From contig CM000151.3 of assembly GCA_000004695.1 (NCBI GenBank), forward strand, positions 2,176,001 to 2,240,000: a stretch of 64,000 nucleotides of DNA. Reading direction: 5' to 3'. Source of the DNA: Dictyostelium discoideum (taxonomy: Eukaryota). Numbering within the stretch: the first letter of the stretch is position 1; the number at the start of each line of letters is the position of its first letter. The notes below the pieces were generated by a model, which was not told where the DNA came from, searched no databases, and was given only the letters and a program-made list of their open reading frames with translations. Below, piece by piece: positions 3,926 to 7,684 of the stretch. The position numbers were made by a program, and so were the translations under genes.

Positions 3926-6900
3926 GATAAAAATTTATAAATACCTGGATCTAATAAACATTGATTACAATGAGGCATATCAAGTGAAATTAAAACTTTT
4001 TTATCATCTTTTGAAATTATTTTAGTGATTGTTGTTGTTGGTCTACCATCTGATAACATTTTATCTTGGAATCTACCATAAAGTGTTTTACCATTTTTAC
4101 TAATTTTAAGATAATTAACATTTTGTAAATTATTACTATTTGGTGATGTTTCTACATTTGTATGTTCACTATCTATACAATTATTAATTTTACCTTCAGT
4201 AGTTGAAATATCAGATGACATTTGGATTTGTAAAGTGTTTAGATTACTTTTATAATTCCAATTTGAAACTGATAATGAAAGTTTAAAACCATCTTTACTA
4301 ACTGTGAATTGATTACCTGCAAATGTAAATTCTTTACCATTGTTACTTTCAATATTTTCAATTGTCATTATAATGGTTGCATTATTAACAATTTGAGAAA
4401 ATGTTGAAATTAAAGAACCTGAACCAGTTAGGTTATTTGTAGTATTTGTAATTTTCCAACCACTTTTAAGATTGATTAAAGAGTTTGGTACTTGATTATT
4501 ATTTAAATCAATTTCAGCAATTGAATCAATATAAATTAAATATACAGTATCTTCATTTATAATGGTAGTTGTGCCGTCGGGATTTACCTTTGTTTCAGTT
4601 GGTGGTTTTGATTCACCAACATCCTTTGTTAAACAATCAAGACCAATGAAACCAGAATTACATTTACATTCACCATTTGAATTACAATTACCATTACCAC
4701 TACAATTATTTAAACAATTAATAGTTGATTCTGAATATGGATAAATTGAACCAGACCATGTAATATTATTTTGAATGATTTCAATATTCTTTAAACCAAC
4801 ACCTGGTGGGATTGAAATAACTATTGTTTCATTATCAATTGAGTTTATTGGTATTATTTCATTATCAAATGAAAATTGGAAATATTTATGAACATCACCG
4901 AAAAAACCTGATATTGAAATGTTACCACCAGAAGTGGATGGTACCTTACTTGATGACGATACATAATGATATGGAATTGTACAAATTTCATTGTCTAAGC
5001 TTGTCCATTTATTATTACATGTACATTGTTTAGTAGTTTCATTACAATATCCATTTTCAGGTTGAAGGTATGGATTAATTAAACCGGACCATGTTATACC
5101 ATTTTGGGTTACTTCAGTTTTTACAAAACCGAATCCTTTACCAATTTGAGCATAGATTGTATTTGAATTAATTGAATCTATAAGGGAGCTAACACCATTA
5201 AAGGAAACAGAAATACCCAAATGAATATCACCAAACCAACCATATAATTTGATTGCACCACCAGATTCGACTGGAACTTTGGTTGAGTTTGTTACATTAT
5301 GAATTGGGATTAAACAATCCTCACTAGTCCATTCTTTAAAACATGCACAAACACCCATATGATCATTACAAATTCCATTTGAATTACAAGTTGGATTTTT
5401 ACATGGAACAGGAGTATGAATTAAATTAAAGTAGGTTGTTGTACTTTTATCTTCAACCATAACTGTAAATGATTTATTACCATAGTCAACAATTGGATAA
5501 TTAATATCACAAATTATTTTATAGAATGTAGTTGATTTAACAATACAATCATTATTACCGATCTTAACATTTACAACTGATTTATCATAAGAATAATATT
5601 GACCAGTGATTTCAAATGTTGCATTATTTTGAATGATCGTATCGATTTGTGGTGCATTACCTGCGATTGAAACTGTGAAATTAATTCCTGGTATTAAAAA
5701 TCTAATTTGAATAATATCATATTGATTACTAGCAACACTAAAATATCCTGAAAAACTATCATTTAAATTATTTGAACTAAATTTAATTTCAGGATATGTT
5801 ACAATATTATCTAAATTTGTTCCAATATTTTTTCCAATTAATGTAACTCGTGTTGATGATAAATTTAAAAATTTATAAACATTTATTTGACCTTTTTTTT
5901 TTTTTTTTTTTTTTTTAAAAAATATAAAAATAAAAATTAGTTATTTTTTAAAAATTATATAAAATTAGTTAATTATTATTCTATTCAAACTTACCATCAT
6001 TACAAGTTGAAGTTAAATTATAATTTGAAAAATTATTACCAACTAATCTTCTTTGATATGTTGGATCTTGTAAATAACAATAATAGCAATCTGGTAAAGA
6101 TCCTGATAATAAATTATTTGAAACATCTAAACTAATTGAACACCATGATTCATCGATACTACCAGTTAGTTTGTTATTACTTAAAGTAGCAGTTTGAGTG
6201 AATGCTGATTTTTGTAATGTATCTTTTACAGATGGAAGATTACCACCAATTTCAGAATTTGATAATGAAAATTGTTGGGCTCTTTGAAAAATTGATAGAT
6301 CTGGTAATGTTGAAAAGTTTCCATTTTCAACTATAAAGTTACTACATGTACCTGTTGGTAATTTTGAAAATGGGAAATTACCATTAATATTGAATTTTTT
6401 ACCAGCATTTTTTAAAGAAAATGAAACAAGTGTTTGATTACTATTTGATAAATCAATATAATCAGCTGGTGGACCCCAATTTCCTTGTGTAAAATATCTA
6501 CATTTATTATTATAATTATTATTTTTATTATTATTATTCAAGATAACTTTTTGAAAAAAAAAAAAAATTAAATTAAATAAAAAACTTACATAGTACCCCA
6601 CATTGGATTAATAATATTAGAAAATTCAGTTGGGAAATTTAAAGGATTTGAATTTGAAAAACCCATTCCTATGTAAGTTAATTTACTAAAAGATAGAATG
6701 TTCACTAATGAAGATTGATTAAAATCATTTCCTAAATTGAAGCTTAAAGTCCTTAGAAAAGAAAGTGATGATACATCAGGTATATTTTTAGTATTAAAAA
6801 ATAATGATGAGAGTTTATTACCACTTTGATCACCATCAATTTCAATATCACATATTGCTCCCAAAACAGTGCTTTTTATTTATTTTTTTTTTTTAAAAAG

Positions 6901-7528
6901 AAAATATAAAAAATTGGGATTAATTAATTATATCTAATTGTTTTTTTTTTTTTTTTTTACCAAAAAATTTTAAAAAAAAAAAAAAAAAAAATTTATTAAA
7001 TAAAAATAAACTTACAAACTTGTTACATCTTTCAAATAAGATGCTTTAATATTCATGTGACTATTAATTCCTTCTCCTTGAAAATTAATATAAACATTAT
7101 CATATTTTGGAAGGACTTTATCAAATTCAAAGTATAGTTTATTGTGAATTGATAAATAGCCTATTGAGGGAATTGGAAAGTATGCAAAATTTTGATCTAC
7201 CGAAACTTCTGCCATATATAAATAGTAAAGTTTAGTGAACCCATTAAAATCACTCCAACTTAAAATTTCATTTGTTGTGGATCTCAATGTCCTAAAAAAT
7301 AAAAACAAAAGGAAAAAAAAAAAAAAAGTTAAAAAATACTACTAAATTGAAATTAATTTCTTGTTTTAAACATACAAAGATTCTAAATTTCCGTTGGAAT
7401 TACACCTTGAACCAAAAAATACCCCACTACATATTATTGTTTCAATGTTTGGTATATTAAGTTTTGTGTCATTAACTTTTTGAATAATACTATAAAGATA
7501 TGGTACTTTTTTTAATTTTTAAAATCAG

Positions 7529-7564
<36 letters not shown>

Positions 7565-7684
7565 ATAATAAATATAAAAATAATTATAATAATAGTTACC
7601 CTCTTCAGAAACAAGATCAACAGAGTTTACAAAAGATATAAATGAAATCAAAAGGATAATTAATATTGGTAAATTGTATTTCAT
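3680..7684 (-). CDS. Receptor A: type I membrane glycoprotein with signal peptide, plant-type LRRs, tandem IPT/TIG domains, EGF-like modules, TM and short tail. Seven exons: 7600..7684, 7376..7505, 7016..7291, 6590..6871, 5995..6497, 3945..5891, 3680..3870; about 1137 aa
   Basis: Exon 1 is a signal peptide (MKYNLPILIILLISFISFVNS) followed by a GTAACT donor. A 130-nt mini-exon (..ICSGVFFGSRCNSNGNLESL) is required to restore phase between exon 1 and the 7012..7308 ORF. The 6586..6864 and 5981..6601 ORFs carry LxxLxxLxLxxN repeats (NKLTGSIDESW..SNNLLSGSLPD). The large exon carries repeated IPT/TIG-like modules (ISGFFGDVH...VISIPPGVG..IEIIQNNITWSGSIYPYS) and EGF-like Cys spacing (CSGNGNCNSNGECKCNSGFIGLDC). 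The last exon, after a GTATTT donor at DPG, encodes the TM FSVIINSDFKSSDSCGKENKKPWLIPVAVTVPVVGCALIIAAFMLRKKIHSNK.. All seven junctions are phase-consistent with GT/AG. The acceptor of exon 5 was placed after the Asn-rich read-through (AG at 6498-6499) to restore frame. Confidence 0.7.

What the first reader, a model, noticed from the sequence alone, without database searches (positions are those of the whole stretch)
5995..7684. Receptor A carries plant-type extracellular LRRs N-terminal to the IPT/TIG array, and needs a cryptic 130-nt mini-exon to stay in frame
The 6586..6864 and 5981..6601 ORFs encode LxxLxxLxLxxNxL(S/T)GxIP-type repeats (NKLTGSIDESW, SNNLLSGSLPD, SNSEIGGNLPS), characteristic of plant-specific-type LRR ectodomains; this fusion to IPT/TIG plus EGF is unusual. 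The signal exon (phase 1) and the first LRR-region exon (entered in phase 2) cannot be joined directly. A 42-codon exon at 7376..7505 (..ICSGVFFGSRCNSNGNLESL, GTATGT donor) restores the frame and would be missed by ORF-based annotation. The exon 5 acceptor also has to be moved 3' of an Asn-rich read-through.
Basis: seen in the sequence. Interest (0 to 1): 0.5.

Follow-up and report, generated by a model that had tools for sequence, protein, structure and literature searches.

The report
Annotated Dictyostelium ComC-family LRR receptor gene
The flagged stretch is the 5' half of a Dictyostelium discoideum cell-surface protein gene that is already annotated: the 130-base "mini-exon" is real and conserved but already in the reference gene model, and the LRR–β-sandwich–EGF layout is the normal design of the catalogued ComC family.

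Summary
The window is Dictyostelium discoideum AX4 chromosome 2. Seven minus-strand exons, including the 130-nt exon 7505..7376, give an open 1137-aa frame. Skipping that exon gives immediate stop codons.

The product is 100% identical over 100% of its length to RefSeq XP_644971.2 / UniProt Q558U5. An older 1163-aa model also carried the exon. The exon is exactly 130 nt, with AG/GT sites, in three other Dictyostelium species. It is 127–133 nt, in the same phases, in the neighbouring paralogue. So it is not cryptic.

It encodes the N-terminal cap of the LRR domain: a helix, invariant Cys54/Cys63 and the first β-strand.

The LRR + β-sandwich/IPT + EGF + supersandwich architecture is the norm for the dictyostelid ComC family (Pfam PF24141, PF24143, PF22933, all above threshold).

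Verdict: already known, low interest.

The parts
7600..7684 (-). Exon 1 (85 nt, ends in phase 1): start codon and signal peptide MKYNLPILIILLISFISFVNS, then VDLVSEE.
   Evidence: Identical to residues 1-29 of XP_644971.2. Exon 1 is 85/91/88/73 nt in four species, always phase 1. The signal-peptide assignment is by inspection.
7506..7599 (-). Intron 1 (94 nt, GTAACT...AAAAAG), AT-rich with a long T run.
   Evidence: Intron length varies from 94 to 191 nt between species while the flanking exons keep their phase.
7376..7505 (-). Exon 2, the 130-nt "mini-exon" (codons 29-72: VPYLYSIIQKVNDTKLNIPNIETIICSGVFFGSRCNSNGNLESL). It encodes the N-terminal cap of the LRR domain: helix 29-39, helix 49-54, invariant Cys54 and Cys63, and the start of the first β-strand.
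   Evidence: Restores the frame. Exactly 130 nt with AG/GT sites in D. firmibasis and D. citrinum by script; the same in D. dimigraforme by my reading of the printed sequence, after the script's pattern over-ran by 4 nt. 130/127/133 nt, same phases, in paralogue B of three species. K38, C54 and C63 are invariant in the family alignment A1. Independent profile hit E=3.6e-10. AF2 secondary structure, pLDDT 83-92 here.
7016..7291 (-). Exon 3 (276 nt, phase 2 to 2): irregular LRRs, residues 72-164.
   Evidence: Start of the PF24141 LRR_ComC match, residues 87-388.
6590..6871 (-). Exon 4 (282 nt, phase 2 to 2): irregular LRRs, residues 164-258. It includes an FNIP-like turn (LGNDFNQSSLVNI) and has no plant-type signature.
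   Evidence: FGxxFNQ consensus taken from the abstract of PMC9525666. No Pfam FNIP hit at E<=10.
5995..6497 (-). Exon 5 (503 nt, phase 2 to 1): residues 258-426. Its acceptor lies 3' of the Asn-rich in-frame read-through. It holds the last LRRs and the Cys-rich C-terminal cap (C377, C395, C398, C423).
6074..6436 (-). Plant-specific-class-like LRRs within exon 5 (residues ~279-399): FNINGNFP, SEIGGNLP, NKLTGSID, NLLSGSLP.
   Evidence: Motif scan. The only single-sequence PDB hits are plant BIR2 (7.3e-5) and BIR3, on this stretch. 49 of 55 family-profile PDB hits are plant extracellular LRR proteins, nearly all through profile positions ~327-393. N366, G370, I372, D373, N386, L388, G390 and P393 are invariant. 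A short second β-strand follows each main strand in the AF2 model.
3945..5891 (-). Exon 6 (1947 nt): two β-sandwich domains, EGF + IPT-like β-sandwich modules, and the ComC supersandwich domain.
   Evidence: Pfam: PF24143 at residues 506-581 (35.1 bits vs cut-off 27), EGF_2 (28.4 vs 22.1), PF22933 ComC_SSD at 857-1079 (161 bits vs 24). PF01833 TIG reaches only 14.3 bits against 20.9.
3680..3870 (-). Exon 7 (191 nt including the TAA stop): juxtamembrane segment, a single transmembrane helix (WLIPVAVTVPVVGCALIIAAFML) and a 17-aa cytoplasmic tail.
   Evidence: The transmembrane helix is assigned by inspection of the sequence. The older model P0018 spliced on two further bogus exons here.

Best explanation
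Coordinates 5995-7684 (minus strand) are exons 1-5 of an already annotated D. discoideum AX4 chromosome-2 gene (XP_644971.2 / EAL71062.2 / UniProt Q558U5, "EGF-like domain-containing protein").

**What it encodes (shown)**
- The product is a type-I membrane glycoprotein of the dictyostelid ComC family.
- Exon 1 encodes the signal peptide.
- The 130-nt exon 2 encodes the disulphide-type N-terminal cap of the LRR solenoid.
- Exons 3-5 encode about 15 LRR turns and a Cys-rich C-terminal cap.
- The last 3-4 turns have the NxL(S/T)GxIP motif typical of plant extracellular LRRs. The earlier turns are irregular, 13-27 residues long.

**How it probably works (inferred)**
- The LRR arc sits at the membrane-distal end of a stalk made of β-sandwich/EGF modules and the ComC supersandwich domain, where it binds a partner or ligand.
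- The cytoplasmic tail is only 17 residues, so the protein cannot signal enzymatically. It would act as an adhesion or recognition molecule, or as the ligand-binding subunit of a complex.
- This is by analogy with ComC, which from my memory of Kibler et al. 2003 acts non-cell-autonomously in developmental cell-cell communication upstream of lagC/lagD.

The gene model, the domain composition and the family membership are shown. The partner and the biological role are inferred.
For: - The seven-exon CDS is open, and omitting exon 2 gives stops.
- It is 100% identical over 100% of its length to P0001 = XP_644971.2/Q558U5, on an 8.48-Mb contig. The old model P0018 differs only at the C-terminus.
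- Pfam matches above cut-off: LRR_ComC 6.4e-37, Beta-sand_ComC_2nd 1.8e-8, ComC_SSD 3.7e-47, EGF_2.
- Exon 2 is 130 nt with conserved splice sites in four species and 127-133 nt in paralogue B.
- An independent profile hits it at 3.6e-10.
- The AF2 model of residues 1-432 has pLDDT 89.7 and pTM 0.82, and is an LRR solenoid with an N-cap helix.
- Full-length single-stretch relatives that I sampled are all Dictyostelium, most of them with the same architecture.
- Synteny B-A-rpl24 is conserved in every assembly examined.
- The literature lists comC as an EGF-domain, signal-peptide plus transmembrane gene essential for development and restricted to group 4 (PMC4931340).
Against: - I could not examine any transcript evidence (RNA-seq or EST). 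The splice junctions rest on frame logic, conservation and the reference annotation.
- No functional data exist for this particular paralogue, and no paper mentioning Q558U5 was found.
- Similarity to ComC itself was shown only through the Pfam ComC-named models, not by direct alignment with the ComC protein.
- The neighbouring paralogue B has decayed in AX4, so family members at this locus can be dispensable.
Confidence: 0.9

Rival explanations
1. The plant-type repeats reflect true common ancestry, or an ancient transfer, between the dictyostelid ComC ectodomain and the plant/green-algal LRR-RLK/RLP ectodomain. The shared module would be an N-cap helix with a Cys pair, PS-class LRRs and a Cys-rich C-cap.
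For: - 49 of 55 family-profile PDB hits are plant extracellular LRR proteins, down to E=1e-30.
- The only single-sequence hits are BIR2 and BIR3.
- The multi-stretch hits in the 1.84-billion-protein library are LRRNT_2/LRR_8 proteins, including ones from pomegranate and Botryococcus.
- The N-cap pattern C-x8-C-x3-G-x-L-x-x-L resembles LRRNT_2, although its alignment to MIK2 is weak (domain 1).
Against: - Only 3-4 of about 15 repeats carry the motif. Repeat lengths are 20-29 residues rather than a regular 24.
- No LRRNT_2 hit appeared even at E<=10, and LRR_8/LRR_1 stayed below their cut-offs.
- The low E-values come from one short unit matching many tandem repeats.
- Short repeat motifs converge easily.
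Confidence: 0.15
2. The plant-like motif is convergent, or simply a generic flavour of extracellular LRRs in many eukaryotes. The domain is a lineage-specific, irregular dictyostelid LRR (Pfam LRR_ComC) with no special relation to plants.
For: - The domain is matched as a unit only by PF24141.
- Most repeats are irregular, and one is FNIP-like, a Dictyostelium/giant-virus LRR flavour (PMC9525666).
- PS-like multi-repeat hits also come from metagenomic and algal proteins, not only land plants.
Against: The PDB sequence hits are almost exclusively plant proteins. The motif residues are invariant across the family, which is more than a vague flavour.
Confidence: 0.6
3. The mini-exon is not used in vivo. 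The locus would be a pseudogene, or would be translated from a downstream start, and the annotated model would be a frame-rescuing prediction artefact.
For: No transcript data were available to me. The adjacent paralogue B is a pseudogene in AX4 and has specifically lost its mini-exon.
Against: - Exon length (130 nt), phase, and AG/GT sites are conserved in four species, while the flanking introns vary from 94 to 191 nt and are not conserved.
- The same structure is found in paralogue B of three species.
- K38, C54 and C63 are invariant.
- An independent profile hits the exon at 3.6e-10.
- The AF2 model places it as an integral cap, with pLDDT 83-92.
- Without it there is no signal peptide in frame.
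Confidence: 0.03
4. The tandem A/B pair is a hyper-polymorphic recognition locus, analogous to tgrB1/tgrC1.
For: A "D. discoideum" assembly (GCA_054859385.1) encodes an A protein only 88% identical, with an extra EGF/β-sandwich module and an intact B.
Against: - That assembly is 87-91% identical to AX4 across the whole 24 kb including the flanks, so it is a divergent lineage rather than a locus-specific polymorphism.
- Another strain is 99.5% identical over 17.7 kb, with a single amino-acid difference in A.
Confidence: 0.05

Closest known systems
ComC family of Dictyostelium (EGF-like domain-containing protein ComC; Pfam PF24141 LRR_ComC, PF24143 Beta-sand_ComC_2nd, PF22933 ComC_SSD)
   Same: All three ComC-specific domains plus EGF modules are matched above Pfam's cut-offs and in the same order. 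The protein has a signal peptide, a single transmembrane helix and a short tail. Dozens of Dictyostelium relatives match full-length.
   Different: This is an uncharacterised paralogue (Q558U5), not comC itself. I made no direct alignment with ComC, and no phenotype is known. The number of EGF/β-sandwich modules varies between orthologues (1137-1268 aa).
Plant extracellular LRR proteins of the plant-specific (PS) LRR class (BRI1/BRL, MIK2, PSKR, SERK/BAK1, BIR2/3, PGIP, TMM)
Tgr (TgrB1/TgrC1) IPT/TIG cell-surface proteins of Dictyostelium
   Same: Both are dictyostelid type-I membrane proteins with IPT/TIG-like β-sandwich repeats that take part in developmental cell-cell interactions. IPT/TIG and EGF families are expanded in Dictyostelia (PMC4931340).
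   Different: I know of no LRR_ComC or ComC_SSD domain in Tgr proteins, but I did not test this. The Pfam TIG hit here is below threshold. There is no evidence of tgr-like hyper-polymorphism.
FNIP/FGxxFN LRR proteins (Dictyostelium, CroV; PMC9525666)
   Different: It is a single turn only, and no Pfam FNIP hit appeared at E<=10.

Membership tests
ComC family (Pfam-defined) | N-terminal LRR_ComC domain (PF24141) above the gathering score | tested here: met
   128.2 bits against cut-off 27, E=6.4e-37, residues 87-388, profile positions 2-288 of 288. 132 bits on the isolated N-terminal region.
ComC family (Pfam-defined) | ComC second β-sandwich (PF24143) and ComC supersandwich domain (PF22933) | tested here: met
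   PF24143: 35.1 bits against 27. PF22933: 161.2 bits against 24, profile positions 2-222 of 222.
ComC family (Pfam-defined) | EGF modules; signal peptide; single C-terminal transmembrane helix | tested here: met
   EGF_2 28.4 against 22.1, and EGF_Teneurin 33.8 against 24.3. The hydrophobic N-terminus and the WLIPVAVTVPVVGCALIIAAFML segment were read from the translation and assigned by inspection, not with a predictor.
ComC family (functional) | Role in developmental intercellular communication (the comC phenotype) | not testable with these tools
   No data exist for Q558U5. comC is listed as a developmentally essential gene in PMC4931340.
Plant-specific (PS) LRR class | Tandem, regular ~24-residue repeats with LxxLxLxxNxL(S/T)GxIP | tested here: inconclusive
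   Four motif matches (residues 293, 339, 366 and 386), in repeats of 27, 29, 20 and 23 residues. The other ~11 repeats lack the motif. The profile hits plant LRR proteins almost exclusively, through positions ~327-393.
Plant-specific (PS) LRR class | LRRNT_2-type N-terminal cap (PF08263) | tested here: not met
   No LRRNT_2 hit at E<=10 on the 80-aa N-terminal fragment or on the whole domain. There is only a non-significant alignment to the MIK2 cap (domain 1).
Plant-specific (PS) LRR class | Additional short β-strand after the conserved segment (the second sheet, as in PGIP) | tested here: inconclusive
   The AF2 model shows paired strands 331-335/342-344, 360-362/367-369 and 380-382/389-390. 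This is a prediction only.
Generic Pfam LRR families (LRR_8, LRR_1, LRR_4) | Score above the gathering threshold | tested here: not met
   LRR_8: 13.2 bits against 27. LRR_1: 16.7 against 20.6.
IPT/TIG (PF01833) | Score above the gathering threshold | tested here: not met
   14.3 bits against 20.9 at residues 513-573. The same stretch is covered by PF24143. Some orthologues carry precomputed PF01833 hits. The modules are IPT-like β-sandwiches, but an "IPT/TIG array" is not formally met in this protein.
FNIP LRR (PF05725) | FNIP repeat hit | tested here: not met
   No hit at E<=10.

The most novel reading that the evidence does not exclude
The most conserved part of the ComC-family ectodomain is a Cys-capped N-terminal helix plus terminal NxL(S/T)GxIP repeats and a Cys-rich C-cap. 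On this reading it is homologous to the plant/green-algal LRR-RLK/RLP ectodomain module. The "plant-specific" LRR ectodomain would then predate the Amoebozoa-Archaeplastida split, or have been transferred anciently. In Dictyostelia it would have been wired to a β-sandwich/EGF stalk instead of a kinase.
Probability: 0.12. Interest if true: 0.45.

Novelty: already known. Interest (0 to 1): 0.1.

Why it matters
There is little new here. The gene, its seven-exon model including the 130-nt exon, and its domain architecture are already in RefSeq/UniProt and Pfam.

Two modest points remain:
That is useful as calibration of the scan.
- The invariant terminal repeats of the ComC-family LRR domain are of the plant-specific class. 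One review-style statement describes that class as exclusively plant (PMC2244805). If this reflected homology rather than convergence, it would bear on the origin of plant receptor ectodomains. The present evidence does not establish that.

Tried and rejected
- **N-terminal word-index search.** Searching with the N-terminal region alone returned a single D. purpureum protein and not even the self-hit. It was uninformative. The HMMER scan of the representative library replaced it.
- **AFDB fold search.** The afdb50 library was unavailable, so I obtained no named structural match to ComC itself.
- **Hyper-polymorphism.** I considered a tgr-like hyper-polymorphic locus because a \"D. discoideum\" orthologue is only 88% identical. 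I rejected it because that assembly is 87-91% identical over the flanks as well.
- **Alternative acceptor.** The acceptor at 7489 (tttatag|TATTATTC) is 16 nt downstream, hence out of frame, and it would remove the conserved VPYLY residues.
- **LRRNT_2 and FNIP membership.** No hits.
- **Literature searches.** Searches for Q558U5, for comC+lagC, and for plant-specific LRR in Dictyostelium found nothing specific.
- **Other family genes in the window.** The + strand regions at 29-35 kb match only the C-terminal part of the protein, including the ComC_SSD region, and have no LRR_ComC domain. They say nothing about the mini-exon.
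Full report
**Source and context.** The window has about 22% G+C, with poly(A)/poly(T)-rich non-coding DNA. The protein assembled from the finding is identical to a Dictyostelium discoideum AX4 protein encoded on an 8.48-Mb contig. The window is therefore AX4 chromosome 2. The finding lies on the minus strand.

**Checking the observation.** I read 5000-8500 on the minus strand and located the splice motifs.
- Exon 1 is 7684..7600. 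It is 85 nt, has donor G|GTAACT and ends in phase 1.
- The proposed exon is 7505..7376. It is 130 nt, with acceptor AAAAAG| and donor |GTATGT.
- Exon 3 is 7291..7016 (276 nt).
- Exon 4 is 6871..6590 (282 nt).
- Exon 5 is 6497..5995 (503 nt). Its acceptor ...AATGTAG| lies 3' of the in-frame NNNNKNNNYNNK read-through seen in ORF 5981..6601.
- Exon 6 is 5891..3945.
- Exon 7 is 3870..3680.

Concatenated, these give 3414 nt with no internal stop, coding for 1137 aa. Leaving out the 130-nt exon gives "...SEEGH*" at once. The exon is 43 codons plus one base, not 42. The alternative acceptor at 7489 is 16 nt away and so out of frame.

**Is the exon more than chance?**
- A 44-codon open frame has P≈0.013 at this composition.
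- I built a profile from only the B-group paralogues of other species and more distant family members, leaving out this gene and its orthologues. Among 1216 six-frame fragments of the window, it hits the 7518..7369 frame on profile positions 29-72 with E=3.6e-10.
- I fetched the orthologous loci of D. firmibasis, D. citrinum and D. dimigraforme.
  - The exon starts after an AG with TACCAT(A/T)TCTT and ends before GTA(T/A).. in all of them.
  - It is 130 nt in each species. The script reported 134 nt for D. dimigraforme only because my pattern over-ran; the printed sequence shows ...TGGCT|GTATGT.
  - Exon 1 is 85, 91, 88 and 73 nt, always phase 1.
  - Intron 1 is 94-191 nt and is not conserved.
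- The neighbouring paralogue B has the same structure in three species: exon 1 of 82-88 nt in phase 1, and exon 2 of 130, 127 and 133 nt.
- In the 13-sequence family alignment, K38, C54 and C63 are invariant, and G67 and L72 nearly so.

**Is it cryptic?** No.
- The seven-exon product is 100% identical over 100% of its length to P0001 = XP_644971.2 / EAL71062.2 / UniRef100_Q558U5, "EGF-like domain-containing protein [D. discoideum AX4]".
- An older sequence in the same cluster (P0018, 1163 aa) already contains the exon. It differs only by spurious extra C-terminal residues.
- Models from five other assemblies all contain the VP(Y/F)L...NGNL..L peptide.
The D. cf. discoideum model P0003 does read through the equivalent intron ("[20 protein letters not shown]"), whereas the AX4 reference uses the 6497 acceptor.

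**What the protein is.**
- Pfam gives the following matches:

| Model | Residues | Score vs cut-off |
|---|---|---|
| LRR_ComC (PF24141) | 87-388 | 128 bits vs 27 |
| Beta-sand_ComC_2nd (PF24143) | 506-581 | 35.1 vs 27 |
| EGF_2 / EGF_Teneurin | – | above cut-off |
| ComC_SSD (PF22933) | 857-1079 | 161 vs 24 |
| TIG (PF01833) | 513-573 | 14.3 vs 20.9 (sub-threshold) |

- With the N-terminal signal-like segment, one transmembrane helix and a 17-aa tail (by inspection), this is a type-I surface protein of the ComC family.
- The "unusual fusion" is the family norm. A HMMER scan of 1.84 billion representatives with the N-terminal domain alignment gives many single-stretch, full-length matches.
- Six of the nine I sampled combine LRR_ComC with ComC_SSD, TIG and/or EGF. 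All ten I looked up are Dictyostelium proteins.
- comC is listed among developmentally essential, group-4-restricted genes with EGF domains, a signal peptide and a transmembrane segment (PMC4931340).
- From memory and not verified here: Kibler et al. 2003 (Dev Biol) described ComC as acting in a cell-adhesion/communication pathway with lagC and lagD.

**Structure of the N-terminal region.**
- AlphaFold2 on the alignment gives a confident model, with mean pLDDT 89.7 and pTM 0.82.
- The mini-exon (codons 29-72) forms helix 29-39, a short helix 49-54, the C54...C63 segment and the first β-strand from residue 69. This is the N-terminal cap of the LRR solenoid.
- About 15 turns follow, with lengths of 13-29 residues. 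Then comes a C-terminal cap containing C377, C395, C398 and C423.

**Are the LRRs "plant-type"?** Partly.

For:
- The NxL(S/T)GxIP-like signature occurs four times (FNINGNFP 293, SEIGGNLP 339, NKLTGSID 366, NLLSGSLP 386), all in exon 5.
- These residues are the most conserved in the domain: N366, G370, I372, D373, N386, L388, G390 and P393 are invariant.
- The single sequence hits only plant BIR2 (7.3e-5) and BIR3 in the PDB.
- With the family profile, 49 of 55 PDB hits, including the top 46, are plant extracellular LRR proteins. They include MIK2 at 1e-30, BRL3, PEPR1, TDR, HSL1, TMM, PGIP, SERKs/BAK1, BIRs, LRX2, TMK1, PRKs and SOBIR1. Nearly all match through profile positions ~327-393.
- Animal LRRs (biglycan, APL1, LRRTM2) match only weakly, on the N-terminal repeats.
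- The Foldseek top 31 hits are plant ectodomains.
- Multi-stretch hits in the big library are LRRNT_2/LRR_8 proteins from, for example, pomegranate and Botryococcus.

Against:
- Exon 4 and most of exon 3 encode irregular repeats without the motif. One turn is FNIP-like (PMC9525666).
- No LRRNT_2 hit appeared at E<=10, and LRR_8 and LRR_1 stayed below their cut-offs.
- Foldseek TM-scores are only 0.23-0.42.
- The low profile E-values come from one short unit matching many tandem plant repeats.

The repeat-class resemblance is therefore real but local. It does not establish homology with plant receptors.

**Mechanism.** Shown: this is a secreted/membrane architecture with a capped LRR arc at the N-terminus of a modular stalk, and a tail too short for catalysis. 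Inferred: the LRR arc binds a partner or ligand at the cell surface. Output would then need lateral partners or adhesion itself, as proposed for ComC in developmental communication. No data exist for this paralogue.

**Side observations.**
- Paralogue B, immediately upstream (~8439-13650, minus strand), is decayed in AX4. It is damaged in four ways:
  - A 1-nt deletion in an A-run near 8826 shifts the frame (ORFs).
  - Profile segments 32-76 (its mini-exon), 138-202 and 257-286 are missing.
  - An acceptor-plus-exon-start piece is duplicated.
  - About 2.1 kb of AT-rich DNA is inserted.
- A second strain that is 99.5% identical shares the truncated B, so this is not a sequencing error. B is intact in a divergent "D. 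discoideum" assembly and in three other species.
- That divergent assembly is 87-91% identical over the flanks too. This removes the idea of tgr-like hyper-polymorphism.
- Orthologues differ by one EGF/β-sandwich module (1137-1268 aa).

**Verdict.** The feature is an already annotated gene of a catalogued family, so novelty is "already known" and interest is low. The only mildly interesting residue is the plant-specific-class signature in the invariant terminal LRRs of the ComC family.

Noticed in passing
window ~8439-13650, minus strand: The tandem paralogue B of the same family is a decayed pseudogene in AX4. A 1-nt deletion in an A-run near 8826 shifts the frame. Its mini-exon and two other profile segments are lost. 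An acceptor/exon-start fragment is duplicated near 13300-13500. About 2.1 kb of AT-rich filler lies at 10820-12940. A 99.5%-identical strain (L005) shares this state. B is intact (1029 aa) in a divergent assembly (L004) and in D. firmibasis, D. citrinum and D. dimigraforme.
   Followed up: partly
L004 (GCA_054859385.1, labelled D. discoideum) versus window 1-19000: This assembly is only 87-91% identical to AX4 over 24 kb including the flanking genes. Another D. discoideum strain (L005) is 99.5% identical. The strain labelled D. discoideum therefore looks like a divergent lineage or cryptic species.
   Followed up: partly
Orthologues P0002-P0005 versus window exon 6 (3945-5891): Orthologues in four assemblies carry one extra EGF + β-sandwich module (1247-1268 aa). 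AX4 has 1137 aa and D. firmibasis 1141 aa. This is copy-number variation of the stalk modules.
   Followed up: no
P0003 (D. cf. discoideum), equivalent of window intron 4 (6498-6589): The automated gene model reads through the Asn-rich intron in frame ([20 protein letters not shown]).
   Followed up: no
window 29206-30902 (+) and 34687-35484 (+): Two more genes resemble the C-terminal (ComC supersandwich/EGF) part of the protein at about 30% identity. No LRR_ComC-like N-terminal domain was detectable in six-frame profile searches.
   Followed up: partly
window 2487-2795 (-) and 582-1616 (-): A ribosomal protein L24e gene and a PALP-type (pyridoxal-phosphate dehydratase-like) gene lie downstream. 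The order B - A - rpl24 is conserved in all six Dictyostelium assemblies examined. The PALP gene follows only in AX4 and the two D. discoideum-labelled assemblies (L004, L005); in D. firmibasis, D. citrinum and D. dimigraforme rpl24 is followed by an unannotated ~1100-aa gene and a dual-specificity phosphatase.
   Followed up: no
window 6700-6760 (-), residues ~206-222: One LRR turn (LSFNLGNDFNQSSLVNI) resembles the FNIP/FGxxFNQ repeat typical of Dictyostelium and CroV LRR proteins. It sits inside an otherwise different LRR domain, and there was no Pfam FNIP hit.
   Followed up: partly
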